Origin: Ichthyobacteriaceae bacterium
GTDB taxonomy: Bacteria; Bacteroidota; Bacteroidia; Flavobacteriales; JADGDT01
Assembly (NCBI GenBank): GCA_023145615.1
Contig: JAGLDK010000008.1
Span: 9,837 to 73,836, forward strand
Reading direction: 5' to 3'
DNA length: 64,000 bases
The notes below the pieces were generated by a model. That model was not told the origin of the DNA. It saw nothing but the letters and a program-made list of their open reading frames with translations, and ran no database searches. Below are positions 1 through 15,199 of this stretch, in pieces (the stretch's first letter is position 1; every line of letters begins with the position of its first letter). A program made the translations under genes and the position numbers.

Positions 1-1034
1 ATACTTTTGGTCATTTCAAGCGTAGCAAATTTTGCTCCTTTTTTCGATCTATATTCTAAAGTATCTAAATCTAAAGAAAGTATCTCCTTTTTACCTTCGG
101 CATTAACCGTTTTTTTATAAAAACCTTGTTTCGATTTCGAACCTAACCAACCATTTTCCATCATGGTTTCAACATACTTAGGTATGGCAAATAAATCGTG
201 AGCCTCGTCATTTGGCACTCCTTTATAAAGTCCGTTGGCAACATGCACCAAAGTATCAAGCCCAACCACATCAACAGTTCGGAAAGTTGCAGATTTTGCT
301 CGTCCAATTACCGGACCTGTAAGTTTATCAACCTCCTCAATAGTAAGCCCCATTTCTTTTACAACATGAAACAGTTCCATAATACTATAAATACCAACTC
401 TGTTGGCAATAAAAGCAGGAGTATCTTTTGCTAGCACCGATGTTTTACCTAAATATTGCTCGCCGTAATTCATTAAGAATTCAACAATTTTGGTATCGGT
501 TTTTTTAGTAGGAATTACTTCGAAAAGTTTTAAATAACGTGGTGGGTTAAAAAAGTGCGTACCACAAAAATGCTTCTGAAAATCTTCATCTCTATCGGTA
601 ATCATCATATTAATAGGAATACCCGATGTGTTTGATGTAATTAAAGAGCCTTGTTTACGATATTTAACAACATTATCGAAAACAATTTTTTTAATATCTA
701 ACCTTTCCACAACAACCTCCATTACCCAATCGGCATCTTTTATTTTGGGCATATCATCGTCAAAGTTTCCGGTTGTAATTAAACTGGCAAACTCTTTTTT
801 ATAAATAGGCGAAGGATTAGATTTAAGCGTGCTTTTAAGTGCATCGTTTACAATTCTATTCCTTACTATTTTATTTTCAATAGTAAGTCCTTTTAATTTT
901 TCTTTATCATCAAGCTCACGAGGCACAATATCAAGTAGAAGAACTTCTACACCAATATTTGCAAAATGGCATGCAATACGAGACCCCATAATTCCGGAAC
1001 CAAGTATGGCTACTTTTTTAATTGCTCTGTTCAT
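1..1034 (-). CDS. 3-hydroxyacyl-CoA dehydrogenase family protein, N-terminal part (gene continues past the left window edge)
   Basis: Own translation of the minus strand from ATG at 1034-1032: MNRAIKKVAILGSGIMGSRIACHFANIGVEVLLLDI... This is the Rossmann GxGxxG NAD-binding N-terminus of FadB/Hbd-type dehydrogenases. The frame stays open to position 1. It is absent from the ORF track because the window edge truncates it. Confidence 0.85.
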   Translation of the reverse strand, partial: MNRAIKKVAILGSGIMGSRIACHFANIGVEVLLLDIVPRELDDKEKLKGLTIENKIVRNRIVNDALKSTLKSNPSPIYKKEFASLITTGNFDDDMPKIKDADWVMEVVVERLDIKKIVFDNVVKYRKQGSLITSNTSGIPINMMITDRDEDFQKHFCGTHFFNPPRYLKLFEVIPTKKTDTKIVEFLMNYGEQYLGKTSVLAKDTPAFIANRVGIYSIMELFHVVKEMGLTIEEVDKLTGPVIGRAKSATFRTVDVVGLDTLVHVANGLYKGVPNDEAHDLFAIPKYVETMMENGWLGSKSKQGFYKKTVNAEGKKEILSLDLDTLEYRSKKGAKFATLEMTKS

Positions 1035-1438
1035 ACAATTTTGGATTGTTATTAGTTTTATTTTTTGCTTCTGACAATGCCAAAAACATAGTAAGTTTTA
1101 TTTTAAAATAATATTGATTAAAAGCGAACGAGTTAACACTATTAATACTAATTAAATTTTTTTTATTGATTATCAAGAGGTTTAAATTGCACATTGATAA
1201 TTAACAATTATTAATACCTCTTTCTAAGTTATACTATAATTTAATAATAAGTACCATGACTTAATTATTTGTTTACATTATTTTAAAATAACTAGTATTT
1301 ATAGGTACTGGGGAATTAACTGTTACTTATATCAACACTCCGTTAAATTAACAACGTGTAGTTATCTGTAAAGTTATCAACTTAACACTTTAAAAATTAA
1401 GCAATATTAAATTACTGTAGTGTTTTATACACTTATAT

Positions 1439-1460
1439 ATTGATTGATTGATTGATTGAT
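1439..1460. repeat. Tetranucleotide microsatellite (ATTG)x5.5
   Basis: Direct reading ATTGATTGATTGATTGATTGAT, in the 471-bp spacer between the MarR stop (1506) and the dehydrogenase start (1034). Confidence 0.95.
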
Positions 1461-1505
1461 ACATAATGCCATACGAAAAAAAATAACAGACTATTATATA
1501 TGATA

Positions 1506-1949
1506 TTAATCTCCTAAAATTTTTTCATCGTGACTCATTTTTATAATCAAATCGGCTACTTCGTAAAAGTGTTTTAATTTTTGAGGAGACACGTTTTCTC
1601 CCATAACTATATTGAATTTTTCGACTGATTTTTCTGTAATATTTCGTATTTCCATCCCCTTTTCTGTTAAGCAAACAAGCCTACCTCTTCCATCTTTAGG
1701 GTTATCTTTTCGATAAATCAACTTTTTTTCTTCTAACGATTTTAAAGTTCTCGACAAACTTGTTGACTCAACACCCATACGAGGACCAAGCCTAGTTGAT
1801 GGAGTACATCCATCGGGACTAATTGATAAAAGTGTAAAACCTTGCGCCATACTATAGCCATATTTAGCCGCTCTATCAGCATACATTTTCACTACTCCTT
1901 GCCACGCCATACGCAACATTAAATCAATTGTTCTTGTATTTTCCTCCAT
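1506..1949 (-). CDS. MarR family transcriptional regulator
   Basis: 147 aa with a winged-helix core typical of MarR (..TPSTRLGPRMGVESTSLSRTLKSLEEKKLIYRKDNPKDGRGRLVCLTEKG..). It sits upstream of, and co-oriented with, the acyl-CoA dehydrogenase-type gene. Confidence 0.85.
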   Translation of the reverse strand: MEENTRTIDLMLRMAWQGVVKMYADRAAKYGYSMAQGFTLLSISPDGCTPSTRLGPRMGVESTSLSRTLKSLEEKKLIYRKDNPKDGRGRLVCLTEKGMEIRNITEKSVEKFNIVMGENVSPQKLKHFYEVADLIIKMSHDEKILGD

Positions 1950-2166
1950 TATTTTATTGTTTTCGTAATATATTTAACGGTTTCGTCATTATTATTATAT
2001 ATAAATATAAACCCAATTATTAAATTCTTATTAATTTTTATAATCAAGATATAATTTAAGTATATAATTTAATATCATAAACTTAAACATCACTTACTAT
2101 GCAAACATAGTAAAAAAACTTATATTTTACCCCCATAAAAAACAATGTATTACAACCTAAATAATA

Positions 2167-2174
2167 TACTTTTG
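2167..2174 (+). promoter_or_regulatory. Candidate Bacteroidota sigma-A -7 box (TACTTTTG)
   Basis: Matches the TAnnTTTG consensus, 64 nt upstream of ATG 2238. It shares the TACTTTTGCAC core with the rpsA candidate. No clear -33 TTG. Confidence 0.35.
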
Positions 2175-2237
2175 CACCCGTTACCCCCATTTACTAAACA
2201 TTATACATTTATTTATACAACTTATTAAATATTGAGT

Positions 2238-5200
2238 ATGACACGTAAATTACTTAAACAACTTATGTTGAGCTTTATGCTTACAATGTTGTTCTTTAAC
2301 CTTCAAGCCCAGGTTACAACATCAAATATTGATGGTGTAGTAAAAGACCCAACTGGAGAAACACTACCAGGAGCAAATATTGTTGCCATTCACACCCCAT
2401 CGGGTACAACTTACGGAGCAACAGCCAACATATACGGAAAGTTTATTATTCCGGATACTAGAGTTGGTGGACCGTACACTATTACAGTTTCGTTTATTGG
2501 ATACAACAACTATACTATTAATGGAATAACTCTAAATTTAGGAGAAACTTACTCAATAAACGCAAATCTTACAGATGGTGCTTTAGCACTTGACAATGTT
2601 GTTGTTATTGCCGAAAAAAATGCGGTAATTGATAGAAAACGTACCGGATCGGCAATTAACATTTCTAGTAAAACAATTAAACAAATGCCAACAATTTCTC
2701 GTTCGCAAGAGGATTTAACAAGGTTAACTCCTAGTAGCGACGGTAATAGTTTTGGTGGTAGAAATAGTCAGTTTAATAACTTTTCTTTAGACGGTTCAAT
2801 CTTCAATAACCCTTTCGGACTTGATGCTGCCACTCCTGGTGGACAAACAAAGTCTCAACCAATATCGTTAGATGCTATTGAGCAAGTACAGGTTTCGTTA
2901 GCTCCTTTCGATGTTACTCAGGCTGGTTTTACAGGTGCGGCAGTAAATGCGGTTACTAAATCAGGAACTAATGAGTTTAAAGGTACTGTTTATGATTTTT
3001 ACCGTAATCAAAACATGACAGGAAATAAAGTATCAGGGAAAAAAATTGAAAGAGCCGATTTAAATCAGTTGCAAACGGGTGTTTCAGTTGGTGGTCCAAT
3101 TATTAAAAACAAACTTTTCTTTTTCTCAAACTTCGAAATTGAAAGACGTAGTGATTTAGGTACTCCTTATAAGGCTCGTAATGAAGGCGAAAAAGTAGGT
3201 GGTGTAACTTCTCGAATTACTGCCGATGACATGAAGATGGTATCAAAATTATTGAAAGATAATTATGGTTACGAAACTGGTGCTTACGAAAACTACATGC
3301 GTTATACTGGTAACCAAAAAGGTATTATAAAAATTGATTGGAATATTAGTAAGCAACATACTCTATCGGCTAAATACAACTTTTTAAGAGCCAGCAGAGA
3401 TATGAATGCACACCCAAGTGCAATTGGACGAAGAGGTCCGGATTTAACAACTTTACAATTCGAAAATTCAGGATACAGAATTAACAACAATTTAGATTCT
3501 TGGATTGCAGAAATAAATTCTAGATTCGAAAACTCATCTAACAAACTATTATTTGGATACACTGAGTTTAACGATTGGAGAGATGCTTTTTCTGATCCTT
3601 TTCCAACTATCAACATTAACCAAGCCAATGTTAGAGGTATTGTTGCAGGTATGGAGCCATTTTCTATAAACAACGTATTAAACCAAAGAGTTTTTCAGGT
3701 TACTGATAACTTTAACTATTATTTAGGCGATCACGTTATTACTGCAGGTGGATCTTTCGAAAAATTCATGTTTAAAAACTCTTTCAATCTTGGTGCTTAC
3801 GATGGCGTATTCAGACCAGGATATACTGATATAGATGAGTTTAAAAAGGCTATTGAAAGTGACGATTTTAGAAATAAAGTTAACGAAGCTAGAGCTACTG
3901 CTGATGCAGGAAATTGGAGTTGGGCATATACAAATGTTGGACAGGTTGCTGCATTTATTCAGGATAAATGGAAAGTTAACGAAAAGTTTACTTTAACTTA
4001 TGGTGTAAGAATGGATATGCCATTGTTCTTTGATACTGCCGAAATGCTTGAAAATAAAATTGAAGAAAATCCACAAGGAGGTTCTCAATGGAATACTTCT
4101 GATAGCGAAGGAAATGATTTGGGTGGAAAAGTATATTACGATAATGATGGTAATTATCAAACTATTGATAACTCTAAATTTCCGGTACAAAAACCATTAT
4201 TTTCTCCTAGAGTTGGTTTCAATTACGATATAAAAGGTGATAAAACACTTCAACTACGTGGTGGATCTGGACTATTTACTGGTAGATTACCATTTGTATG
4301 GATTGGAAACCAAGTACAAAATTATAACTCTTGGTATTTTAACTCTACTACCGAAAACTTTAAGTTTCCACAAGTTTGGAGAAACAACTTAGGTTTTGAT
4401 GCTAATTTAGGTAAAGGTTGGTCTATTGAAAGTGATGCTATTTTTACACAAGATATTGCTGCTCCAATTGTTAAAAACTATGCTTTAGGAAATCCTACCG
4501 GAAAAATTAACATTAATGGTTACGGAGATAACAGACCTGTTTATAACAACGAAGATCAGGTATATATTCCTGTAAAACAAACAAACAAACGCTTATGTTT
4601 TCGAAAACATGAACGATGGTTACAGTTTTAACTTGTCTTTGCAGGTTAAAAAACAATTCAACAACGGGTTATTTACAAGTTTAGGATATAACTTTTTAGA
4701 TGCAAAAGACTATTCGTCAATAGCAGCCGAAATATCGAGTGATGCTTACGACAGAAATCCACATAGTGGAAATGCAAACAACCCTACTCTATCAGCATCA
4801 ATGTACGGTAACAAACACCGTTTTGTATTTGTAGCTGGTAAAACTTTTAACTGGAACGAAAATTGGGCAACTACTATTTCGGTTATTGGAGAAGCTTCTC
4901 AGGGTGGTAGATTTAATTATACTTACTCTGGAGATATAAATAAAGATCACTCTAATATGAATGATTTACTTTATATTCCTACAAAAAACGAAATTATAAA
5001 CAAAATGGAGTTTAACGAGTATAAAGTTGAAGATTTCGAAAATCCTGGAGCTACTAAAATTGTTAACGAAACTCAACAACGTAAAGCGTTTGAAGCATTT
5101 ATTGAGCAAGACACTTATTTAAGTGATAACCGTGGTAGTTTTGTTGAAAAATATGCAATTTTAAGTCCATGGTATTCAAAGTTCGATTTAAGATTAATGC

Positions 5201-5472
5201 AAGATTTTAACTTTAAAATAGGTAGTAAAACAAACACTGTTCAGTTTACTTGCGATATTATGAATGTTGGAAATTTACTATACTCAAATTGGGGTGTTAA
5301 ACAATTACCTGTAAATACACAACCTGTTGGAGTTAGTTATACTGATGCTAAGGGAAATTCATCTGAAAATCCAAGATACACTTTTGATGTTGAACAAAAA
5401 TCAACTTTTGTTGATGACTTTAATTTAATGAGTCGTTGGCAAATGCAACTTGGTTTAAGATATATTTTCTAA
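2238..5472 (+). pseudogene. TonB-dependent receptor (CarboxypepD_reg + plug + beta-barrel) interrupted by a frameshift near 4575-4631
   Basis: ORFs 2232..4631 (799 aa; likely true start ATG 2238, signal peptide ..FNLQAQ) and 4609..5472 (287 aa) are the N- and C-terminal parts of one receptor. The first has the carboxypeptidase-regulatory-like and plug motifs. The second ends in the barrel terminus ..LGLRYIF. The frames differ by +1 and the switch lies at an (AAAC)4 repeat. Confidence 0.8.
4575..4590 (+). repeat. (AAAC)x4 tetranucleotide repeat at the frameshift site of the TonB-dependent receptor
   Basis: Direct reading gtaAAACAAACAAACAAACgc. Removing one 4-nt unit joins the two ORFs (..PVKQTNAYVFENMNDGYSFNL..). 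Confidence 0.95.
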
Positions 5473-5494
5473 ATCAATAATAAATAAGAGTAAT

Positions 5495-5537
5495 AAAAAA
5501 GGAGCAATTTCTGAATTCAGAAATTGCTCCTTTTTTA
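5495..5537. terminator. Bidirectional rho-independent terminator
   Basis: Perfect palindrome GGAGCAATTTCTGAATTCAGAAATTGCTCC flanked by an A-run and a T-run, between convergent genes (5472 + / 5591 -). Confidence 0.85.
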
Positions 5538-5590
5538 TTTGAATCTAAGTTATAATTATAATAGAACCTAGTATTTTTAATTTAGTAAAA

Positions 5591-6226
5591 TTATTTACGA
5601 TTATTATTATTATTACTATAATTATTTGTTTTATAATTAGTTTGACGAGTTTTACTATCGTTAGAATAATTTTTCTTGTTATTAAACTCGCTTCTCAAAC
5701 TTATTTGCTGATTTCTTAAATCTATATTTCCATCAGATAACTCATACAAATGCTTTAAAATTGTTTCATCATCAACTGTATCTTTATTCCAGTTTAGGAA
5801 ACTCTTTTTCATATGATTTGCCAAAGCCATAATTAATAGCTCCTTTTCCTCAAAATCTTCTCTAGAAATTGCAACAGCAATCATCTTTTTTAAATTCAAA
5901 CCGTAAAAACGATATTTTCTACTTTTTTCGGGATAGACTAACATCTCAGGCTTTTCGGTAAAAAATTCTTCTGAAGGAATTGGATACGGAGAATCAACAT
6001 CAATTTTAAACTTCGACATAATAAATAACTGATCCCACAATTTGTGTTTAAAATCAGGTACATCACGTAAGTGTGGATTTAAATTACCCATTACTTCAAT
6101 TATAGCAAGGGCTGTATCATTACGCTCATCTCTATCTTCAATGCTAACACAATAATTAACCATTTTCTGAACATTACGTCCATATTCTGGAATAATTAAT
6201 TTTTCTCTTATAGTATTATAATCCAT
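5591..6226 (-). CDS. DUF4290 domain-containing protein
   Basis: 211 aa. The N-terminus MDYNTIREKLIIPEYGRNVQKMV..NPHLRDVPDFKHKLWDQLF matches the conserved Bacteroidota DUF4290 family as I recall it. It has a low-complexity N/K-rich tail. Confidence 0.7.
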   Translation of the reverse strand: MDYNTIREKLIIPEYGRNVQKMVNYCVSIEDRDERNDTALAIIEVMGNLNPHLRDVPDFKHKLWDQLFIMSKFKIDVDSPYPIPSEEFFTEKPEMLVYPEKSRKYRFYGLNLKKMIAVAISREDFEEKELLIMALANHMKKSFLNWNKDTVDDETILKHLYELSDGNIDLRNQQISLRSEFNNKKNYSNDSKTRQTNYKTNNYSNNNNNRK

Positions 6227-6745
6227 TAAAAAAATATTTGATTAAAATAGTAGTGTAACCTTTTTCGGCACAATAAATTTATTCGGTAATTTATACTAAA
6301 ACACTCCGTTAAAATAACAGTTATAAATTAAACACAATATATTAAAGAAAAGTTGTTTTGAAGATTCCTGAAAATTAAATCGTAATAATTACCTATTAAT
6401 AATAGTAGTAATGCAAATTTACTTAAAAAAAATCAAATACAATTAAAATATAAATGAATAACTACGCTTTTTATTGAAAAACAAATTAAATACTGAATCA
6501 GTAACATAATAATAGCCCATTACTTTTTGTCGTAACACACTATACACCAATTAATTAATACATAAAAAACTACAGCAATTTAATGTTTTATATTACTGAT
6601 TTTTAGAACATTAAATTAATAACTGCACATTGATAATTTAACATAGTGTTGCATAACAAATACCTTTATTTACAACCCAACATTTATAATATTAAGCTGA
6701 TAATTAGCAGTGCTATAACTGTGCAATTAATACAAATATTAATCA

Positions 6746-6753
6746 TAAATTTG
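6746..6753 (+). promoter_or_regulatory. Candidate -7 box (TAAATTTG) for mtaB
   Basis: Matches TAnnTTTG, 55 nt upstream of ATG 6808. Confidence 0.35.
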
Positions 6754-6807
6754 CAAAACAAACTACTCTCCAAATTTCATTTAGTTTAGATTAAAGAGAA
6801 AATAAAA

Positions 6808-8121
6808 ATGGATAATAAAAAAGTTGCATTTTACACGCTTGGTTGTAAATTAAATTTTTCTGAAACATCAACAATATCACGCCAATTTATTAATAAAGGT
6901 TATGATAAAGTTGAGTTTAACGAACCTGCCGACATATATGTTATTAACACTTGCTCGGTTACCGAAAATGCCGATAAGCGTTTTAAAACCACAGTAAAAA
7001 CAGCACTTAAAACTAATCCGAAAGCATTTATAATTGCTATTGGATGTTATGCTCAGCTAAAACCCGAAGAACTTGCCGATTTAAACGGTGTTGATTTGGT
7101 GCTTGGTGCTACCGAAAAATTTAAAATAACAAACTACATAAACGATCTTAGTAAAAAAGAATTTGCCGAAGTACATTCGTGCGAAATTGAAGACGTAAAT
7201 ATTTACGAAGGTTCGTATTCGGTTGGAGATAGAACTCGTGCTTTTTTAAAAATTCAGGATGGATGCGATTATAAATGTACTTATTGTACTATTCCACTTG
7301 CAAGAGGTATTTCTCGTTCCGATACTTTAGATAATGTAATTAAAAACGCCAAAGAAATTACAGCTAAAGGAATTAAAGAAATTGTTATTACTGGAATTAA
7401 TACCGGAGATTACGGAAAAGGAGAGAATGGTGATAAAAAACATCAACATACTTTTTTAGATTTAGTTAAAAAGTTAGATGAAATTGAAAATTTAGCAAGG
7501 GTTAGAATTTCATCAATAGAACCAAATTTATTAAAAAACGAAACTATTGAATTTGTTTCGAAATCTAATTCGTTTGTTCCTCATTTTCATATACCATTAC
7601 AATCGGGTAATGATGAAATTTTAGGGTTAATGAAACGTAGATATAAACGAGATTTATATACTAACAGAGTTGAACAAATAAAAATATTAATGCCCGATGC
7701 AGCAATTGGAGTTGATGTAATTGTTGGTTTCCCGGGCGAAACCGACGAGTATTTTATGGATACTTTTAAGTATTTAAAACAACTTGATGTTGCGTATTTT
7801 CATGTTTTTACATATTCGGAAAGAGACAACACCGAAGCTGTATTAATGGATAATGTTGTGCCAATGGCAGTACGTAACAAACGTAGTAAAATGTTGCGTG
7901 GATTATCGGTAAAGAAAAAAAGAGCTTTTTACGAAAGCCAAATTGGAAAACAAAAAACTGTAATATTCGAAGCTGATAATAAAAATGGTTTCATGCACGG
8001 ATTTACCGAAAATTATGTAAAAGTTAAAACCAAATTTAACAGCAACTTAATTAATCAAGAAAAAGAAGTTGAACTTGTTGAAATTGATGAAGATGGAGAT
8101 TTCATTATCAACATACTTTAA
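6808..8121 (+). CDS. mtaB: tRNA (t6A37) methylthiotransferase MtaB (radical SAM MTTase)
   Basis: 437 aa. It has the N-terminal MTTase domain (FYTLGCKLNFSE), the radical-SAM CxxxCxxC motif (CDYKCTYC) and a C-terminal TRAM-like region. Confidence 0.9.
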   Translation: MDNKKVAFYTLGCKLNFSETSTISRQFINKGYDKVEFNEPADIYVINTCSVTENADKRFKTTVKTALKTNPKAFIIAIGCYAQLKPEELADLNGVDLVLGATEKFKITNYINDLSKKEFAEVHSCEIEDVNIYEGSYSVGDRTRAFLKIQDGCDYKCTYCTIPLARGISRSDTLDNVIKNAKEITAKGIKEIVITGINTGDYGKGENGDKKHQHTFLDLVKKLDEIENLARVRISSIEPNLLKNETIEFVSKSNSFVPHFHIPLQSGNDEILGLMKRRYKRDLYTNRVEQIKILMPDAAIGVDVIVGFPGETDEYFMDTFKYLKQLDVAYFHVFTYSERDNTEAVLMDNVVPMAVRNKRSKMLRGLSVKKKRAFYESQIGKQKTVIFEADNKNGFMHGFTENYVKVKTKFNSNLINQEKEVELVEIDEDGDFIINIL

Positions 8122-8259
8122 ATTACATAGTAATCTTACAAATTTCGTGATTTATATAATAGTTATTACCGTTAATATAGATAGTAACTATAACACTACA
8201 TTTGTAATAAAACCAATTACATTTTAAAAACCACAGCTAAAAACTACTTAGTAAACCAC

Positions 8260-9858
8260 ATGAAAAATATTATTTTATCGATAATTGCGGGGTTGTTATT
8301 ATCGTTTAGTTGGCCTACAAATGGATTTGCGGGCTTATTATTTATTGCATTTATTCCTCTGTTGTATATTACTCAGGAAATTTACAAATTGAACCAGAAA
8401 AAAAGTGGCTATAAAGTTTTCGGACTTGCATATATTACTTTTGTAATTTGGAATTTCTACACAACTTGGTGGCTACATAATTCCGACTTTTACGCTGGAT
8501 TATTTGCAGTACTTGCAAATTCGGCATTATTAGCTTTGGTGTGGCGTTTGTATTTTATGATAAAAAAACGTGCCGGAAATCATCTATCATTTATGTTTTT
8601 GCCTGCCATTTGGATTGCCTTCGAAAAACTTCATTTAATGTGGGAAATTTCGTGGCCATGGCTAAACTTAGGAAACGGATTTGCCGAATATTACAAATGG
8701 ATTCAGTGGTATGAATACACAGGTGCTTTTGGTGGTACTTTTTGGGTATTACTTGTAAACATTACGTTGTTTGCAGGATTAACCAAATATTTAGAAACTT
8801 CGGATGTTAAAAAAGCAATTCCAGCCTTAATCAGAGGTGCTGTTTTTATAGTTATTCCTATTTCGTATTCTTATTATGTATATAATACTTATTCCGAAAA
8901 AGGAGAAAAAACAGAGGTTGTAGTTCTTCAGCCAAATATTGATCCTTATAAAAATAAATTCGATACAGGAGATGAAGAATTAGGTAGGCAGTTAATTGAA
9001 TTAGCTAACCAAAAAGTTACAAGCAATACATCGTTTGTTTTTGGTCCGGAAACTTCTTTACCCGATGGAATGAATATAAACGCCATTAAAAACTACAGAA
9101 TTTCTAAAGAAATAAACAACTTTACAAAAACACACAACAACACTACTTTTGTTACTGGTGCTACTTTGGTTAATTTTTATTCTGAAGAAAACAAAACTGA
9201 AACATCGAATAGAACACGCAACGGCAAACATTGGTACGATATATATAACACTGCAATTAGGTTTGGCAAAAATTTAGATTCTATTGATCTTTACCATAAA
9301 TCGAAATTGGTTGTTGGTGTTGAAAACATGCCTTTCAGAGAAGTTATACAACCTCTACTTGGAGATTTTATAATAAACCTTGGAGGTACGGTAGGTACAC
9401 ATGTTACGCAAAAAGAAAGAAGTGTTTTTGCTGATAAAAACAAACAAATATACACTGCACCAGTAATTTGTTACGAGTCGGTTTATGGAGAGTTTGTTAC
9501 CGGATATGTAAACAATGGAGCTAATATGCTTTCGGTAATTACAAACGATGGTTGGTGGGGTAACTCACAAGGACACAAACAACATTTATCTTTTTCGAGA
9601 TTAAGAGCTATTGAAAACCGAAGACCAGTTGCACGATCGGCAAACACTGGAATTTCGGCATTAATAAATCAGAAAGGAGATATAATTAAAAGCCTTGAAT
9701 ACGGAAAAAAAGGAGCTATTAAAGGAGATATAATTTTAAATAACGAGCTTACTATATATACTTTATTTGGAGATTATATTGCAAGAGTTGCTGTACTTAT
9801 AGCTGGTATAATTTTTGTTTATGCACTTACTGTAAAGAAAAAAAGTATGGTTTATTAA
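8260..9858 (+). CDS. lnt: Apolipoprotein N-acyltransferase
   Basis: 532 aa. It has a multi-TM N-terminal half and a C-terminal CN-hydrolase domain with the catalytic-Cys context PVICYESVYGEF. Confidence 0.9.
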   Translation: MKNIILSIIAGLLLSFSWPTNGFAGLLFIAFIPLLYITQEIYKLNQKKSGYKVFGLAYITFVIWNFYTTWWLHNSDFYAGLFAVLANSALLALVWRLYFMIKKRAGNHLSFMFLPAIWIAFEKLHLMWEISWPWLNLGNGFAEYYKWIQWYEYTGAFGGTFWVLLVNITLFAGLTKYLETSDVKKAIPALIRGAVFIVIPISYSYYVYNTYSEKGEKTEVVVLQPNIDPYKNKFDTGDEELGRQLIELANQKVTSNTSFVFGPETSLPDGMNINAIKNYRISKEINNFTKTHNNTTFVTGATLVNFYSEENKTETSNRTRNGKHWYDIYNTAIRFGKNLDSIDLYHKSKLVVGVENMPFREVIQPLLGDFIINLGGTVGTHVTQKERSVFADKNKQIYTAPVICYESVYGEFVTGYVNNGANMLSVITNDGWWGNSQGHKQHLSFSRLRAIENRRPVARSANTGISALINQKGDIIKSLEYGKKGAIKGDIILNNELTIYTLFGDYIARVAVLIAGIIFVYALTVKKKSMVY

Positions 9859-9882
9859 AACATCATACAACATTATAAGTAC

Positions 9883-9921
9883 AAAAAAGTCCTATCAACA
9901 AATATTGATAGGACTTTTTTT
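9883..9921. terminator. Bidirectional rho-independent terminator
   Basis: GTCCTATCAA / TTGATAGGAC 10-bp stem flanked by A6 and T7, between convergent lnt and the TonB-dependent receptor. Confidence 0.85.
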
Positions 9922-9960
9922 ATTGTTACTTGAACTTAATTTTAATTCTTAATAATTTTA

Positions 9961-12615
9961 TTAAAAGTTAACTCTTACTGTAAAATTGAAGTTTCTACCC
10001 CAACCCATAAAACCAACAAAATTTTCTCTCAAGTGATCTTTACCATCAACTCCTTCAGCCATATATTCAGCATCTAACACATTATATACATTTACACCTG
10101 CATACATATCTAAAGTATTAAACATAAAATCATAACCAACTGTCATATCTAAAGTATTGAACGATGGAATTTCGAATGATTGCTCTCTATCAGCAACCAC
10201 CCCTTCGCTTACCATTCTTGACTTTACATCAAAAGAAGAATAAAAGTTTGTATTATAATTCCAGTTTGCACTAATAAACATTCCTTTTGCAGGTTTAACT
10301 TTAGCAGTTAATCCGAATTGAGTTTGAGGAGCATCAGCAACTTTTAATCCATCTAATGCAACAATAACATCTTTTTCAATTAAAGTTTGATCCTGAGAAT
10401 CTACCACATCAGTTGTAGGGTCGTTCGTATACTCCCAATTTCCTACCGATGCAAAAGCACCAATATCAAAATAACTACTAATATTATAATTTGCCTCTAA
10501 TTCAATACCGATATGCGTTTGAGATAAATCGGTAAAATTAGCTGTAGCTCTTTTTTTAACCATATCACCATCAACCAATGCTTTATAATCGTAAGTAGCT
10601 GATAAATATCTGTCGGACCATTGAGTGTAATAAGCATTTACCTTAACTGCAATTTTCTCACTTCTGAAACCATAACCAACTTCTCCAGCTATAATTTTTT
10701 CATTATTCAAGTTTTTATTAACATCATTTCTATAATTTATAAAAACAGCATTAATAAAAGGTGCTCTAGAATAATAGCCCAAATTAACGTAAACATTATT
10801 ATTATCGTTCAGGTTATAATTCGACCCTAACTTAAAGTTATATCCTAAACTTGTAACCTCATCAGCATTCTCTACTTTTGCATAACTAAAATAATCGGTT
10901 CTGTTATACCAATTATTCGATACTGATGCTGTTGCAAATACCGATACCGCTTCTGTACCATATTCTAACTGAGAAAACAAACCACCGTAACTTACCTTTC
11001 CAACACTATTAAAGTCAACTATATCGCCAACCTGTGCATCTACATTACCCGATCTTTTAGAATCGTTCCAACCATTAGCACCTAATAAATCTTTAACCTG
11101 ACGGTAATGTTCTCCAGTATATGTACGAGCATCAATACCAACCATTAAGTTTAAATCATCAGTTAACTCATTTTTGTATGTTGATAAAACACCATACCAA
11201 CTATGATTATTCATTGAATTAACCAAAATCATTGCGGCATTACCCTTTCCTTCCTTTTCTTCTGCAGCTAACTGTCTGTTTGTTTCAATAACCTTGGCCC
11301 AATCTTGTCGTAAAGTACCATTATCATCAAACTGTCCATTATCATCAAATTTTTCTTTCGGAACATTATACTTCCAGTTACCATTTGTTCCGTCTTCTAA
11401 ACTAAAACCTCTACCTACAATACCTGATCCACCACCTGAACCAAAAGAAGCATAAGCCGAAGTTGTAATAATTTGCCCATCAGTAATATGCCAAATCCAA
11501 TTTAAACCAAGTTGTGGTTTATGATAAAAGTTCTCGCTTTCGTTTGTTAACTGACTTTGAGATGTATATCCCCAATTGGCATTATATGATCTATCAATAG
11601 TTTCGTAATCTTCGTAAGAAAACATACTGTATTTTCCACCCGGACGCTTACCGTGTACTTGTGGTGCACCTGAAGCTGTAAAAAGCAAGGTATGATTATC
11701 ACCTAATTTCTGAGATGCTGTAAAAAAGTAAGAATAAACATTAGCCCAAGTTTGCTCAATATATCCAGTACCTTGAGTTTTTGATAAAACCATTGTAGCA
11801 GCAAAACCTGACTCTAACAAACCTGTTGATAAACCTACCTTAGTTTTATACATACCATAATTAGTAGATGATCCTTCAACAAATCCACCAGCTTCTGATT
11901 CTGATGGCTTAGTAAGAATATTCATAGTACCACCAACCGAGTTTACGGCTAATTTAGATGCTCCTAAACCTCTTTGAACTTGTATTGAACGTGTTGCATC
12001 CGAAAGTCCTGCCCAGTTACTCCAGTAAACTTTACCATTTTCCATGTCGTTTACAGGAATTCCATTAACCATAACCGCAATATTTTCTTGAGAAAAACCA
12101 CGAATGTTTATTTTAGAATCTCCTACTCCTCCACCCGATTTGGTAGCATATACACCAGGTGTAGTTTTCATAATTTCGGGTAATTCCTGAGAACCTAATT
12201 CTTGTTGAATTTGTTTCGATGAAATTGTTGAAACAGCAACAGGAGTTTTTCTATCAACTGCAACATCGGCAACTAATAAAACTTCTTGCAAACCAACAGC
12301 ATCGGCATACATGTCAACTTGCCCTATTTTTGTAACAGAACCTTCTGAAACAGAAAATGGAACTTCAATTGTAGAATATCCCATAAACGACAATTCTAAA
12401 ATACCACTAGCAGTTGAAACCGAAATTTCAAAAGATCCATCAAGCTTTGTAGTAATTCCGTTTGATGTACCTTTTTCAATAACATTGGCTCCTACCATAA
12501 CATCATTCATATCAGCATCCCAAGCAGTACCTTTTACAATACCCTGAGAAAATCCAAAAATGGAAATTAACATAAGTACCGCTGATAAATAAAATTTAGC
12601 AATAGTCATTCTCAT
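9961..12615 (-). CDS. TonB-dependent receptor with CarboxypepD_reg-like N-terminal domain
   Basis: 884 aa with a signal peptide, a carboxypeptidase-regulatory-like domain, a plug (..KINIRGFSQENIAVMVNGIPVND..) and the barrel terminus ..FNFTVRVNF. Confidence 0.9.
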   Translation of the reverse strand: MRMTIAKFYLSAVLMLISIFGFSQGIVKGTAWDADMNDVMVGANVIEKGTSNGITTKLDGSFEISVSTASGILELSFMGYSTIEVPFSVSEGSVTKIGQVDMYADAVGLQEVLLVADVAVDRKTPVAVSTISSKQIQQELGSQELPEIMKTTPGVYATKSGGGVGDSKINIRGFSQENIAVMVNGIPVNDMENGKVYWSNWAGLSDATRSIQVQRGLGASKLAVNSVGGTMNILTKPSESEAGGFVEGSSTNYGMYKTKVGLSTGLLESGFAATMVLSKTQGTGYIEQTWANVYSYFFTASQKLGDNHTLLFTASGAPQVHGKRPGGKYSMFSYEDYETIDRSYNANWGYTSQSQLTNESENFYHKPQLGLNWIWHITDGQIITTSAYASFGSGGGSGIVGRGFSLEDGTNGNWKYNVPKEKFDDNGQFDDNGTLRQDWAKVIETNRQLAAEEKEGKGNAAMILVNSMNNHSWYGVLSTYKNELTDDLNLMVGIDARTYTGEHYRQVKDLLGANGWNDSKRSGNVDAQVGDIVDFNSVGKVSYGGLFSQLEYGTEAVSVFATASVSNNWYNRTDYFSYAKVENADEVTSLGYNFKLGSNYNLNDNNNVYVNLGYYSRAPFINAVFINYRNDVNKNLNNEKIIAGEVGYGFRSEKIAVKVNAYYTQWSDRYLSATYDYKALVDGDMVKKRATANFTDLSQTHIGIELEANYNISSYFDIGAFASVGNWEYTNDPTTDVVDSQDQTLIEKDVIVALDGLKVADAPQTQFGLTAKVKPAKGMFISANWNYNTNFYSSFDVKSRMVSEGVVADREQSFEIPSFNTLDMTVGYDFMFNTLDMYAGVNVYNVLDAEYMAEGVDGKDHLRENFVGFMGWGRNFNFTVRVNF

Positions 12616-13281
12616 AATTTAATAGTTAATTGGTTAAAATAAATCAATAGTTATATATTAAAAACTTGTTATAAAATGCATACCTATATAATACTGTAAC
12701 TGAAACTGAAAATAATTATCATTGCTTAACAAAAAACAATAATGATTTCAACTTATTTAAGTGCAACTAATGTTAAAAAACACTCATTTAATTACACTAT
12801 AATACTGATTAACATGAATTTACTACTTATTCTTTAGAAAGTGCAAAAATATTTAAAATTAATATAACTACATATATCGTAAACCTTACAACTTAAAACC
12901 ATTATACTTTACATTTATGAAAGTGTATTTTCAATAAATATCAATTCATTAAAATAATGAAACTTGTACTAAAAAAACACCTCTTATTTTTTAAATAAAT
13001 ACACGTTTATCCTTAAAAATATGATGTTTGTCATAAAGTTTAAGCTTTTATACCTGCTAAATATTTATTATGTGTGTGTTTTTTAACTAAAATTGAGAAA
13101 CTACACCTATATATTATGTTAATAACTCAATATAATTTATGTGGAAGTAATTATTAAACTATTTAATAAAAGTTTAATAAGTTATTATATGTTACTTAAT
13201 AGATGTAACATATAATAATGAATAATAATGAAAAGAAATTGCACGTAAATTATACTTATATCTCTGATATTCAAATCGGTG

Positions 13282-13312
13282 TTGTGTAATAACAAAATTA
13301 TATCTACTTTTG
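13282..13312 (+). promoter_or_regulatory. Candidate rpsA promoter (TTG -33 / TACTTTTG -7)
   Basis: TTG at 13282-13284 and TACTTTTG at 13305-13312, with a 20-nt spacer. This fits the Bacteroidota TTG-N17-23-TAnnTTTG consensus and leaves a ~118-nt leader. Confidence 0.45.
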
Positions 13313-13429
13313 CACACCTTTTAGCGGTAATTAGGAATTAAAGGGTTGAAAATTAATTATTTAACATTCTCTCAGAAGTATTCGTTTATTCCTATAAAAT
13401 AACTGAGATACAAAACAAAATTTTCCAAC

Positions 13430-15199
13430 ATGTCAGAGGAAAATAAAAATATCGAAGAGCAAGACCAATTCGCAAATTTTGATTGGGCAGCTTATGAAGC
13501 AGGAATTGAAGATCAAAATCCTGAAGTTAGAAAAGAAATGGAAGAGCTTTATGCTCAATCTCTTGGTGACGTAAATGAAAGTGATGTAGTAGACGGACTA
13601 GTAGTACGTATTACTGACAGAGATGCTATCATTGACATCAACTCGAAGTCTGAAGGAGTTATTTCTCTTAACGAATTCCGTTACAACGCTAATTTAGCTG
13701 TTGGAGATAAAGTTGAAGTTCTTGTTGACAAAAAAGAAGACAGAAACGGACAGTTAGTACTTTCTCACCGTAAGGCTCGTGCTATTAAGGCTTGGGAAAA
13801 TGTTAACAAAGCTCACGATGAAGGAACAATTGTTAATGGTTTCGTAAAATGTAGAACTAAAGGTGGTATGATTGTTGATGTATTCGGTATCGAAGCATTC
13901 TTACCAGGTTCTCAAATTGACGTTAAGCCTATCCGCGATTACGATCAGTATGTTGAGAAGAACATGGAATTCAAAGTTGTTAAAATTAACCACGAATTCA
14001 AAAACGTTGTTGTTTCTCACAAAGCACTTATTGAAGCCGATCTTGAAATCCAGAAGAAGGAAATCATTTCTCAGTTAGAGAAAGGACAAGTTCTTGAAGG
14101 AACTGTTAAGAACATTACTTCTTACGGTGTATTTATCGATTTAGGTGGTGTTGACGGATTGATTCACATTACTGACCTTTCTTGGTCAAGAATCAACCAC
14201 CCATCAGAAGTTGTTGAATTAGATCAGAAACTTAATGTTGTAATCTTAGACTTTGATGAGGCTAAGACTCGTATCCAACTTGGATTAAAACAACTACAGG
14301 CTCACCCTTGGGATGCTCTTGACGGAGAATTAAAAATAGGTGATACTATAAAAGGTAAAGTAGTAGTACTTGCTGATTATGGTGCGTTTGTAGAGATTGC
14401 TCCAGGTGTTGAAGGATTAGTACACGTTTCTGAAATGTCTTGGTCTACTCACTTACGTTCTGCTCAAGATTTCGTAAAAGTTGGTGATCAGTTAGAAGCA
14501 CAAATTCTTACGTTAGATAGAGATGACAGAAAAATGTCTCTTGGTATTAAACAATTATCTCAAGATCCTTGGGCTAATATTACTGAGAAATATCCTGTTG
14601 CTTCTAAGCACCAAGGTATTGTACGTAACTTTACAAACTTCGGAGTATTTGTTGAATTGGAAGAAGGAATTGACGGACTTATCTACATCTCAGACCTATC
14701 TTGGACTAAGAAAGTTAAGCACCCATCTGATTTCTGTGAAATAGGACAAAAATTAGATATTCAGGTTCTTGAATTAGATACTAAATCTCGTCGTTTGTCT
14801 CTTTCTCACAAGCACACTCAAGAAAATCCTTGGGATAAATACGAAGCAAAATATACTCTTAACACAGTAATTTCTGCTACTATTAACGAAGCTAACGATA
14901 AAGGAGCTACTGTAATTCTTGATGAAGGTGTTGAAGGATTTATTCCATCTCGTCACCTTGTAAAAGAAGACGGAAAGTCAATCGTAAAAGGAGAAACTGC
15001 TGAATTTAAAGTAATTGAATTCAACAAAGATCTTAAGCGTATCGTTCTTTCTCACACAAATATCTTCAAAGAAATTGAAGCTAAGAATGTGAAAGAAAAC
15101 AAATCAAAAGCTACTACTAATAACGATTCTGAAAAATCTACTTTAGGTGATTTAGACGCATTAGCAGCATTAAAAAAGAAAATGGAAGAAGGGAAGTAA
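13430..15199 (+). CDS. rpsA: 30S ribosomal protein S1
   Basis: 589 aa with six tandem S1 (OB-fold) repeats, recognisable from the recurring G.V....G.FV.....G..GL.H.S motifs. Confidence 0.95.
   Translation: MSEENKNIEEQDQFANFDWAAYEAGIEDQNPEVRKEMEELYAQSLGDVNESDVVDGLVVRITDRDAIIDINSKSEGVISLNEFRYNANLAVGDKVEVLVDKKEDRNGQLVLSHRKARAIKAWENVNKAHDEGTIVNGFVKCRTKGGMIVDVFGIEAFLPGSQIDVKPIRDYDQYVEKNMEFKVVKINHEFKNVVVSHKALIEADLEIQKKEIISQLEKGQVLEGTVKNITSYGVFIDLGGVDGLIHITDLSWSRINHPSEVVELDQKLNVVILDFDEAKTRIQLGLKQLQAHPWDALDGELKIGDTIKGKVVVLADYGAFVEIAPGVEGLVHVSEMSWSTHLRSAQDFVKVGDQLEAQILTLDRDDRKMSLGIKQLSQDPWANITEKYPVASKHQGIVRNFTNFGVFVELEEGIDGLIYISDLSWTKKVKHPSDFCEIGQKLDIQVLELDTKSRRLSLSHKHTQENPWDKYEAKYTLNTVISATINEANDKGATVILDEGVEGFIPSRHLVKEDGKSIVKGETAEFKVIEFNKDLKRIVLSHTNIFKEIEAKNVKENKSKATTNNDSEKSTLGDLDALAALKKKMEEGK

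What the first reader, a model, noticed from the sequence alone, without database searches (positions are those of the whole stretch)
4575..4631. TonB-dependent receptor broken exactly at an (AAAC)4 repeat; loss of one unit restores a 1078-aa ORF (possible slipped-strand ON/OFF switch)
Seen:
- The receptor is split into 2232..4631 and 4609..5472, in frames that differ by +1.
- The last sensible residues of the first frame (..YIPVKQTN) are encoded by gtaAAACAAACAAACAAACgc at 4572-4592.
- After that point the first frame gives unrelated sequence and stops (KRLCFRKHERWLQF*), while the other frame reads AYVFENMNDGYSFNLSLQVKK, a typical barrel-strand continuation.
- Deleting one AAAC unit (or any single base there) gives ..PVKQTNAYVFENMNDGYSF.. 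and one continuous 1078-aa protein.

Established: tetranucleotide repeats inside outer-membrane receptor genes drive phase variation by slipped-strand mispairing in Haemophilus, Neisseria and others.

Inference: this is either a phase-variable receptor currently OFF, a recent pseudogene, or an assembly error. Four units is short for efficient slippage, which tempers the claim.
Basis: partly seen in the sequence, partly recalled or inferred. Interest (0 to 1): 0.6.

Follow-up and report, generated by a model that had tools for sequence, protein, structure and literature searches.

The report
Length-variable AAAC repeat switches outer-membrane receptor
A four-letter DNA repeat inside an outer-membrane transporter gene of an uncultured deep-sea bacterium has four copies here, which breaks the gene, but six copies, which leave it intact, in another assembly of the same seawater sample. 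It therefore behaves like the slippage-driven on/off switches known from Haemophilus and Neisseria.

Summary
(AAAC)4 at 4575-4590 splits a ~1080-aa Oar-type TonB-dependent transporter gene (2238..5472) into two frames.

The window comes from MAG SW_4.bin.33. This is an Ichthyobacteriaceae (Flavobacteriales) genome from seawater over a South China Sea cold seep, sequenced on Illumina.

- An independent ENA assembly of the same sample is 99.93% identical over 14.2 kb. It carries (AAAC)6, which is in frame and gives a 1080-aa protein reading ..VKQTNKQTNAYVF...
- This 8-bp difference is the only indel in about 50 kb compared. Nineteen homopolymers of 8 nt or more are unchanged.
- A third assembly of the same run (Logan) ends after exactly 3 units.
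- A contig from another run also has 6 units.
- Two neighbouring repeats, (ATTG)n at 1439 and (ATT)n at 5600, also vary in length between samples.
- The repeat encodes the end of a length-variable, probably extracellular loop. Homologues at 64-71% identity lack it.

Verdict: this is a real, hypermutable intragenic repeat. Copy numbers 3, 6 or 9 give an intact gene; all others truncate it. This haplotype is OFF.

Reversible high-frequency switching and any adaptive role are inferred, not shown. It is a new member of a known kind. Counting repeat units in SRR13892591 reads would settle it.

The parts
2238..5472 (+). Oar-type TonB-dependent transporter gene, frameshifted in this window. The alternative TTG start at 2232 is the one the ORF lister reports.
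   Evidence: - Pfam: CarboxypepD_reg (2e-17), CarbopepD_reg_2 and OMP_b-brl_4 PF25183 (6e-43). PF00593 scores 24 bits, below its 27-bit cut-off.
- The 100%-identical intact 1080-aa version is P0001.
- The top Foldseek PDB hits of the AF2 model are all TonB-dependent transporters, E 2e-18 and weaker.
- The NCBI MAG annotation has no protein accession between MarR (MCK5823930) and DUF4290 (MCK5823931).
4575..4590 (+). (AAAC)4 simple sequence repeat, the site of the frameshift. It encodes K-Q-T-N per 3 units.
   Evidence: - Present as described.
- 6 units in L001 (12338-12361) and in L002 (2487-2510).
- Logan contig L088, from the same run as L001, ends after exactly 3 units.
2238..4631 (+). Upstream reading frame of the OFF allele. 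It gives a 797-aa truncated product: signal peptide, N-terminal domain, plug region and about 60% of the barrel, then 14 out-of-frame residues and a stop at 4629-4631.
   Evidence: The product lacks the last ~9 predicted strands and the C-terminal ..LRYIF end.
4591..5472 (+). Downstream, in-frame remainder of the receptor (AYVFENMNDGYSF...LRYIF*). In this allele it is reachable only from the internal ATG at 4609.
   Evidence: It aligns to the conserved NAYVFxN strand and the C-terminus of 17 homologues.
1439..1458 (.). (ATTG)5 intergenic tetranucleotide repeat, read as (CAAT)5 on the - strand. It lies 48 nt after the MarR stop and about 405 nt upstream of the fadJ-like gene start at 1034. It is also length-polymorphic.
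   Evidence: - 5 units in the window and L001; 4 units in L089 (SRR29288233).
- Logan contig L088 starts exactly at its first base.
5600..5614 (-). (ATT)5 trinucleotide repeat, read as AAT (Asn) on the - strand, in the 3' end of the convergent DUF4290 gene. Its length varies in frame.
   Evidence: 4 units in L091, giving a 210-aa protein. 5 units in the window and L001. L092 (SRR29288234) starts with 6 units.
1506..1949 (-). MarR-family regulator, divergent from the receptor gene. A 288-bp shared intergenic region lies between them.
   Evidence: Pfam MarR 5e-10. NCBI name MCK5823930.1.
5501..5530 (.). 30-nt perfect palindrome GGAGCAATTTCTGAATTCAGAAATTGCTCC, flanked by an A-run and a T-run. It is probably a bidirectional terminator for the receptor and DUF4290 genes.
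   Evidence: Sequence. Logan contigs L002 and L091 both end inside it. The terminator function is inferred.

Best explanation
The (AAAC)n tract is a hypermutable repeat inside the coding sequence of an Oar-type TonB-dependent outer-membrane transporter. The host is an uncultured Ichthyobacteriaceae bacterium.

**Mechanism**
- Slipped-strand mispairing during replication adds or removes whole 4-nt units.
- Because 4 is not a multiple of 3, the unit number sets the reading frame.
- n = 3, 6 or 9 gives a full-length receptor of 1076, 1080 or 1084 aa. These differ only by 0, 1 or 2 extra KQTN tetrapeptides at the end of a long variable loop.
- Every other n stops translation 8-14 codons after the tract.
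- The truncated product lacks the last ~9 strands and the C-terminal ..RYIF end. It should therefore fail to assemble in the outer membrane.

**State in this sample**
- The window haplotype has n = 4 and is OFF.
- A co-occurring haplotype in the same seawater sample has n = 6 and is ON.

**Shown versus inferred**
- Shown: the tract, the frame arithmetic, the natural 4-versus-6 polymorphism, and its status as the only indel.
- Inferred: that switching recurs and reverses at a useful rate, roughly 1e-6 to 1e-5 per generation by a back-of-envelope estimate from SNP divergence.
- Inferred: that it serves to escape something that uses the receptor, such as a phage, a bacteriocin or a host factor.
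For: 1. P0001 is 100% identical to the repaired protein but reads ..VKQTNKQTNAYVF... Its DNA has (AAAC)6.
2. Window versus L001 over 14,209 bp shows 2 SNPs and one 8-bp gap at the tract. Window versus scaffold_383 of the same assembly (window 20144-56073) shows 4 SNPs and 0 indels. Nineteen homopolymers of 8 nt or more and three shorter repeats in those regions are unchanged.
3. The window, L001 and L088 are three assemblies of one read set.
   - The window's S1 protein is NCBI MCK5823935.1, 'Ichthyobacteriaceae bacterium', on a 90,083-bp contig.
   - The only Ichthyobacteriaceae MAG in the cold-seep study is SW_4.bin.33, whose longest contig is 90.083 kb. It came from Illumina reads through MEGAHIT and metaSPAdes.
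   - L001 comes from sample SAMN18200488, which is SW_4, run SRR13892591.
   - The three assemblies give 4 units, 6 units, and a contig end after 3 units.
4. An unrelated run, SRR29288233, also has 6 units.
5. Two nearby repeats vary in the same way: (ATTG) 4/5 and (ATT) 4/5/6 or more. Slippage at 5-6-unit tracts is therefore frequent relative to point mutation in this lineage.
6. The tract lies in the most length-variable segment of the family alignment (columns 812-838), just before the conserved NAYVF strand. Homologues at 64-71% identity have no repeat there.
7. In the AF2 model, residues 780-787 end a 37-residue low-confidence loop. That loop is on the long-loop side of the barrel.
8. The OFF allele has no other defect. 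Its coding sequence is otherwise identical to L001.
9. Three of the four SNPs between the two intact alleles change an amino acid, and two of these (D522Y, P527S) fall in another long loop. SNP density is about 5-fold higher in this gene than in the flanks, binomial p = 0.027.
10. From my own knowledge, the Illumina de Bruijn-graph assemblers used here do not normally emit a tract length absent from the reads.
Against: - Only one OFF allele has been seen, against two ON assemblies. No read-level counts are available.
- Tracts of 4-6 units are short. In H. influenzae the well-studied loci usually carry 10-40 units, and the quoted rate of 1e-4 per generation is for long tracts.
- The neighbouring repeats vary without any obvious function. 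The variability could be generic slippage rather than an evolved switch.
- The tract sits 72% of the way into the gene. Classic contingency genes usually carry it near the 5' end. The OFF state therefore wastes a 797-aa product.
- The 3-unit allele is inferred only from where a Logan contig ends. PCR stutter in deep Illumina data could produce such a branch.
- The loop topology rests on a mediocre model (mean pLDDT 60, pTM 0.59).
Confidence: 0.58

Rival explanations
1. This is a one-off loss. A single slippage event deleted two units in one haplotype and produced an ordinary recent pseudogene. The repeat is an accident of an AT-rich loop sequence. It does not switch back at any biologically relevant rate and has no adaptive role.
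For: - Only one OFF allele is known; the other two assemblies have 6 units.
- The tract is short, and the neighbouring repeats vary without apparent function.
- The window haplotype also differs from the other assemblies of the sample at SNPs 2088, 9294 and 42057. This looks like a distinct co-existing strain.
- NCBI's annotation has no protein for this gene.
Against: - The gene has no second lesion.
- The tract is the only indel in ~50 kb.
- The Logan graph of the same reads branches after 3 units. That implies more than the two consensus alleles.
- Tetranucleotide repeats of 4 or more units are absent from 775 kb of homologous loci elsewhere.
Confidence: 0.22
2. The selected feature is in-frame loop-length variation. 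On this view the tract matters because it changes the number of KQTN tetrapeptides (n = 3, 6, 9) in a surface loop, altering recognition by phage or host. Out-of-frame alleles such as n = 4 are short-lived deleterious by-products.
For: - The alleles best supported outside the window are 6 units, plus 3 units by inference. Both are in frame.
- The loop is hypervariable in length across the family.
- Amino-acid-changing SNPs cluster in another long loop.
Against: - A 4-nt unit is an inefficient way to vary a peptide, because two of every three changes are lethal to the gene.
- The n = 4 allele is abundant enough to have been the consensus of a metaSPAdes reassembly.
Confidence: 0.1
3. The 4-unit tract is an artefact of assembly or library PCR. 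The true population carries only in-frame tracts.
For: - The 4-unit allele is seen in only one assembly, a bin reassembly made from recruited reads.
- Tandem repeats are prone to PCR stutter.
Against: - From my own knowledge, Illumina de Bruijn-graph assemblers build contigs from k-mers present in the reads, and the tract plus its flanks is shorter than k.
- A 2-unit deficit is not the typical stutter of minus one unit.
- The same contig has no other indel in ~50 kb, including 19 long homopolymers.
Confidence: 0.07
4. The gene is expressed by programmed +1 ribosomal frameshifting. The ribosome would slip at ..AAC AAA CGC.., where CGC is a rare codon, and make full-length receptor from the 4-unit allele.
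For: CGC accounts for only 4% of Arg codons in 11,573 window codons. It directly follows a Lys AAA codon at the frame junction.
Against: - The frameshift is not conserved. The nearest relatives are simply in frame, and no homologue needs recoding.
- No known +1 frameshift motif or stimulator was identified.
Confidence: 0.02

Closest known systems
Haemophilus influenzae hgpA/B/C haemoglobin-haptoglobin receptors with (CCAA)n
   Same: A tetranucleotide repeat lies inside the ORF of a TonB-dependent outer-membrane receptor. Unit number sets the frame and so the ON or OFF state. Unit number differs between strains, from 4 to 39 units.
   Different: - The hgp tracts are usually much longer. From my own knowledge they lie near the 5' end, just after the signal peptide.
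- Here the tract has 4-6 units and lies at codon 780 of 1080, in a loop-coding segment.
- The receptor family (Oar type), the phylum (Bacteroidota) and the habitat (cold-seep seawater) all differ.
- The switching rate has not been measured here.
Neisseria meningitidis hmbR / hpuAB (poly-G in the ORF) and fetA (promoter poly-C)
   Same: These are TonB-dependent receptors switched by repeat-length change. ON and OFF states differ among isolates (abstracts listed).
   Different: The Neisseria tracts are homopolymers, not a tetranucleotide. In this window, homopolymers of 8-9 nt were invariant.
Bacteroides phase variation of capsules, S-layer and SusC/TonB-dependent systems by invertible promoters
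   Same: Same phylum and the same class of surface targets. There the switching is linked to phage sensitivity.
   Different: The mechanism differs entirely. Bacteroides uses site-specific invertases flipping promoters flanked by inverted repeats. No invertase or inverted-repeat-flanked promoter was seen near this gene.
Myxococcus xanthus Oar (TBDT with a CarboxypepD_reg N-terminal extension)
   Same: The domain architecture and unusual length match. Oar is 300-400 aa longer than typical TBDTs. Oar-type architecture dominates among Bacteroidetes TBDTs.
   Different: Oar is implicated in secretion of the protease PopC. No substrate is known for this protein. No phase variation is reported for Oar.

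Membership tests
TonB-dependent transporter, Oar subclass | N-terminal CarboxypepD_reg / CarbopepD_reg_2 extension | tested here: met
   PF13620 at 2e-17 and PF13715 at 5e-12, residues 31-123.
TonB-dependent transporter, Oar subclass | Large C-terminal beta-barrel with the TBDT fold | tested here: met
   - PF25183 OMP_b-brl_4 at 6e-43. PF00593 reaches only 24 bits against a 27-bit cut-off.
- A profile search hits Cir weakly.
- The top 50 Foldseek PDB hits of the AF2 model are all TBDTs, including YddB, FusA, Cir, PfeA and SusC, E 2e-18 to 2e-12. The model is only moderate (pLDDT 60).
TonB-dependent transporter, Oar subclass | Plug domain (PF07715) with a TonB box | tested here: inconclusive
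   - No PF07715 hit at E <= 1e-3.
- Residues 114-245 have pLDDT below 50.
- The segment is nevertheless the most conserved part of the family, with invariant R135 T136 G137, P151-S156 and F189-Q203.
- No TonB box was tested.
TonB-dependent transporter, Oar subclass | C-terminal aromatic residue (outer-membrane assembly signal) and an N-terminal signal peptide | tested here: met
   - The sequence ends ..LGLRYIF, as do most of the 17 homologues.
- It starts MTRKLLKQLMLSFMLTMLFFNLQAQ.
- Both were read from the sequence. No signal-peptide predictor was run.
Repeat-mediated phase-variable (contingency) locus | Perfect tandem repeat inside the ORF, with a unit not divisible by 3 and longer than chance allows | tested here: met
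   0 of 100 shuffles; expected 0.037 per 64 kb; 0 in 775 kb of homologous loci.
Repeat-mediated phase-variable (contingency) locus | Near-identical genomes differ by whole repeat units, including both in-frame and out-of-frame states | tested here: met
   4 units (OFF) against 6 units (ON) at 99.93% identity. It is the only indel in ~50 kb.
Repeat-mediated phase-variable (contingency) locus | Heterogeneity of tract length within one population or sample | tested here: inconclusive
   Three assemblies of the same SW_4 read set give 4 units, 6 units, and a graph break after 3 units. Reads could not be inspected. Two co-existing strains or PCR stutter could contribute.
Repeat-mediated phase-variable (contingency) locus | Measured high-frequency, reversible switching with a matching change in expression | not testable with these tools
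   This needs a culture, or deep amplicon or read data.
Programmed ribosomal frameshift gene | Frameshift conserved in orthologues, with a recognisable slippery site | tested here: not met
   The closest relatives are in frame. All 17 aligned homologues are single ORFs.
H. influenzae hgp-type receptor | Repeat placed at the 5' end of the gene and homology to hgp | tested here: not met
   The tract is at codon 780 of 1080. The Pfam and fold hits place the protein in the Oar-type family, not hgp.

The most novel reading that the evidence does not exclude
The receptor repeat may be one of three hypermutable repeats packed into 4.2 kb: (ATTG)n at 1439, (AAAC)n at 4575 and (ATT)n at 5600. The other ~58 kb of the window has none of comparable length.

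On this reading the three form a small contingency region around an Oar-type transporter whose surface loops are under diversifying selection. That would show that an uncultured, probably animal-associated deep-sea member of the Flavobacteriales uses repeat slippage for bet-hedging of a surface receptor within a single natural population. The invertase systems typical of Bacteroidota would not be involved. Phage or host pressure would be the likely driver.
Probability: 0.25. Interest if true: 0.7.

Novelty: new member of a known kind. Interest (0 to 1): 0.5.

Why it matters
**Why the case is unusual**
- Repeat-driven phase variation is textbook biology for a few host-adapted Proteobacteria.
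- For Bacteroidota the documented switches are invertible promoters. For uncultured marine bacteria there is almost nothing.
- Three targeted full-text searches found no report of tetranucleotide-repeat switching of a receptor in the Flavobacteriales.

**What this locus offers**
- ON and OFF alleles were recovered from the same seawater sample.
- The public reads (SRR13892591) can test the idea directly.

**Practical lessons**
- Annotation pipelines may label contingency genes in MAGs as pseudogenes. NCBI lists no protein for this gene.
- Different assemblers can pick different alleles from one read set.
- Contig ends that fall on short repeats can flag population heterogeneity.

Tried and rejected
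**Searches that found nothing or could not run**
- An exact flank-plus-gap pattern scan of GTDB species genomes and of JGI metagenomes found 0 hits in each.
- Protein-guided scans of both collections found only relatives at 55% identity or less, none with a repeat. No further strains came from there.
- Exact look-ups of the two window fragments were not on record. The expected partial product KQTNAYVF.. of a Logan contig downstream of the tract was not on record either. The other side of the Logan break could therefore not be seen.
- The look-up of the NCBI contig through P0122 failed. The source had to be identified indirectly from accession order and the 90.083-kb contig length.
- NCBIfam gave no family. 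Rfam gave nothing in the window. A sequence search of the PDB gave only marginal hits.

**Explanations considered and rejected**
- Recoding was rejected because the relatives are in frame.
- Transcriptional slippage was rejected because there is no long homopolymer at the site.
- A promoter-spacing role for (ATTG)n was rejected because it lies about 405 nt from the nearest downstream start codon.
- Tandem-repeat collapse in the assembly graph was rejected because the tract (16-24 nt) is shorter than k-1 for Logan's k = 31. That k value and the graph reasoning are from my own knowledge.
Full report
**1. Observation**

The sequence at 4572-4592 is gtaAAACAAACAAACAAACgc, so (AAAC)4 occupies 4575-4590. 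ORF 2232..4631 (799 aa) ends ..YIPVKQTNKRLCFRKHERWLQF*. ORF 4609..5472 lies in the +1 frame, and that frame reads *NKQTNAYVFENMNDGYSF.. back to a TAA at 4573-4575. Removing one unit fuses the two frames into a protein of 1076 aa from the ATG at 2238, or 1078 aa from the TTG at 2232.

Unit number decides the outcome:
- n = 3, 6, 9 give 1076, 1080 and 1084 aa.
- n = 4, 7, 10 stop at ..KRLCFRKHERWLQF*.
- n = 2, 5, 8 stop at ..LMFSKT*.

The tract is not a chance feature. It appeared in 0 of 100 dinucleotide-preserving shuffles. A Markov simulation expects 0.037 tetranucleotide repeats of 4 or more units per 64 kb, and two are observed. None occurs in 775 kb of homologous loci from other Bacteroidota.

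**2. The gene**

The repaired protein carries CarboxypepD_reg and CarbopepD_reg_2 domains at residues 31-123. It also matches OMP_b-brl_4 (PF25183, 6e-43). PF00593 falls just below its cut-off, and there is no Pfam Plug hit. NCBIfam gives nothing.

An AlphaFold2 model built from 18 homologues is moderate, with mean pLDDT 60 and pTM 0.59. Its best PDB matches are all TonB-dependent transporters, with E from 2e-18 for YddB, FusA, Cir and PfeA. Length and architecture match the Oar subclass of TBDTs, which is the dominant TBDT architecture in Bacteroidetes. The substrate is unknown.

The neighbouring genes are:
- a divergent MarR regulator (1506..1949, - strand);
- a fadJ/fadA/fadE-like operon beyond it;
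- a convergent DUF4290 gene;
- MtaB, Lnt and a second receptor.

**3. Where the repeat sits in the protein**

In the 18-sequence alignment the tract falls in columns 812-838. This is the most gap-rich, least conserved segment, and it lies directly before the conserved NAYVFxN strand. The closest homologues (64-71% identity) read ..FSPTNAYVF or ..GTPVANAYIF there and have no KQTN repeat.

In the model, KQTNKQTN is residues 780-787. It forms the end of a 37-residue low-confidence loop (750-786) between strands 728-749 and 787-809. Counting back from the C-terminus, short turns of 2-5 residues alternate with long loops, and this loop is on the long-loop side. By analogy with solved TBDTs that side is extracellular. 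This step is an inference.

**4. Related sequences: the key result**

P0001, from ENA assembly ERZ23498500 scaffold_613, is 100% identical to the repaired protein. The one difference is that it reads ..VKQTNKQTNAYVF.. and is 1080 aa long. Its DNA (L001) has (AAAC)6.

| Comparison with the window | Region (window coordinates) | SNPs | Indels |
|---|---|---|---|
| L001, ENA scaffold_613 | 1-14201 | 2 (at 2088 and 9294) | one 8-bp gap at the tract |
| ENA scaffold_383 (L083 + L085) | 20144-56073 | 4 | 0 |

Nineteen homopolymers of 8 nt or more and three shorter repeats in these regions are unchanged. A Logan contig from another run (SRR29288233, L002) also has 6 units and differs at 4 SNPs. No further relatives closer than 71% exist in the protein database, GTDB or JGI metagenomes.

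**5. Source of the window**

- The window's ribosomal protein S1 is NCBI MCK5823935.1, 'MAG: Ichthyobacteriaceae bacterium', on a 90,083-bp contig.
- The neighbouring genes carry consecutive accessions. MarR is ...930 and DUF4290 is ...931, so NCBI lists no protein for the receptor.
- In the cold-seep study of Zhang et al. (PMC9357000) the only Ichthyobacteriaceae MAG is SW_4.bin.33. It is 70% complete, has GC 0.3055 and a longest contig of 90.083 kb, and its accession is JAGLDK000000000.
- That MAG was made from Illumina 2x150 reads of sample SW_4 with MEGAHIT, followed by metaSPAdes reassembly.
- SW_4 is seawater just above the invertebrate communities. Its identifiers are SAMN18200488 and SRR13892591. 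L001 is an assembly of that same sample.

The window (4 units) and L001 (6 units) are therefore two assemblies of one read set. From my own knowledge, de Bruijn-graph assemblers do not normally output a tract length that is absent from the reads. I therefore infer that both alleles are present in the sample, together with the SNP variants that distinguish the assemblies.

**6. A third assembly of the same run**

Logan contig L088 (SRR13892591) spans window 1439..4586. It begins at the first base of the (ATTG)5 repeat and ends after exactly three AAAC units. The tracts (20-24 nt) are shorter than k-1 for k = 31, so they cannot create graph cycles. SNP bubbles such as the one at 2088 were evidently resolved inside this contig.

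The simplest reading is that indel branches remained at both repeats. A branch after 3 units implies reads with n = 3 alongside n >= 4. A branch beside 5 ATTG units implies n = 5 alongside n >= 6. PCR stutter cannot be excluded for these minor branches. The k value and the graph reasoning are my own knowledge and inference.

**7. Neighbouring repeats**

| Repeat | Window | L001 (ENA, SW_4) | SRR29288233 | SRR29288234 |
|---|---|---|---|---|
| (ATTG)n at 1439-1458 | 5 | 5 | 4 | not covered |
| (ATT)n at 5600-5614 (Asn codons near the DUF4290 C-terminus) | 5 | 5 | 4 | contig starts with 6 |

All three of the window's longest multi-base repeats lie within 4.2 kb, and all three vary. Slippage at 5-6-unit tracts therefore outpaces point mutation in this lineage, where genomes differ by roughly 1e-4 per site. 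This demonstrates the mechanism. It also shows that variability alone does not prove an evolved switch.

**8. Signs of selection on the receptor**

The OFF allele has no second lesion. Between the two intact alleles, 3 of 4 SNPs change an amino acid: T81I, D522Y and P527S. The last two lie 15 nt apart in another long, low-confidence loop. SNP density is 4 per 3.4 kb in this gene against 4 per 17.9 kb in the flanking contigs of the same run (binomial p = 0.027). The numbers are small, but they are consistent with diversifying pressure on exposed loops.

**9. Interpretation**

- Best supported (0.58): a slippage-prone intragenic repeat toggles the receptor between intact and truncated forms, and this haplotype is OFF.
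- A one-off loss in one co-existing strain (0.22).
- Selection mainly on in-frame KQTN copy number (0.10).
- An artefact (0.07).
- +1 recoding (0.02). CGC after the junction is a rare codon, but the relatives are simply in frame.

**10. Comparison with known systems**

It works like the H. influenzae hgp (CCAA)n receptors and the Neisseria hmbR, hpuAB and fetA loci. It differs in receptor family, phylum, habitat, tract length and tract position. It contrasts with the invertase-based switching usual in Bacteroides. Ichthyobacteriaceae include a fish pathogen and coral-associated lineages. That fits the general link between repeat-based contingency loci and host-adapted bacteria noted.

**11. 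Verdict**

This is a real feature. Switching rate and function remain untested. It is a new member of a known kind, with interest 0.5.

Noticed in passing
window 1439-1458: A second tetranucleotide repeat, (ATTG)5, which reads (CAAT)5 on the - strand. It lies 48 nt after the MarR stop and ~405 nt upstream of the fadJ-like operon start. It has 4 units in run SRR29288233, and a Logan contig of run SRR13892591 starts exactly at it. Its function is unknown, and it is too far from the start codon for a simple promoter-spacing role.
   Followed up: partly
window 5600-5614: (ATT)5 encodes a poly-Asn stretch (..NNYSNNNNNRK*) at the C-terminus of the DUF4290 protein. It has 4 units in SRR29288233, giving a 210-aa protein. 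A contig from SRR29288234 starts with 6 units. This gives three length alleles in four data sets.
   Followed up: partly
window 1439-5614: The three longest multi-base repeats of the 64-kb window all lie within 4.2 kb around the receptor gene. The other ~58 kb has only (TTA)4, (ATT)4 and (AAAT)3. The clustering was noticed after the fact and is unexplained.
   Followed up: no
window 3801 and 3816 (codons 522 and 527); also 2479 and 2492: The two intact receptor alleles (L001 and L002) differ by T81I, a silent S85 change, D522Y and P527S. Three of the four changes alter an amino acid, and two sit in one long low-confidence loop. SNP density is ~5-fold above the flanks (p = 0.027). This may reflect diversifying selection.
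   Followed up: partly
window 5501-5530: A perfect 30-nt palindrome, GGAGCAATTTCTGAATTCAGAAATTGCTCC, between an A-run and a T-run. It is probably a bidirectional terminator for the convergent receptor and DUF4290 genes. Two Logan contigs end inside it.
   Followed up: no
window 2039-2068 and 2167-2174: The MarR-receptor intergenic region contains ~2.5 copies of a 12-13-bp direct repeat (TATAATCAAGTA), which may be an operator. It also contains TACTTTTG, 64 nt upstream of the ATG. This matches the Bacteroidota -7 promoter motif TAnnTTTG, a motif I recall from memory. Neither was tested.
   Followed up: no
window 2088, 9294, 22859, 24862, 26806, 42057: The MAG contig differs at these SNPs from the ENA assembly of the same sample. 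At 2088 and 42057 it also differs from the Logan assembly of the same sample. At least two closely related haplotypes (about 1e-4 divergence) therefore co-exist in sample SW_4.
   Followed up: partly
window ~20300-46100, - strand: A large surface-polysaccharide biosynthesis cluster. It includes glycosyltransferases, a flippase, aminotransferases, ATP-grasp enzymes, a heparinase II/III-like protein and UDP-glucose dehydrogenase. No indels were seen between assemblies here.
   Followed up: no
L001 79-246 (about 7.5 kb left of the window start): A 55-aa IS66 TnpB-like fragment sits upstream of the fatty-acid oxidation operon on the ENA contig.
   Followed up: no
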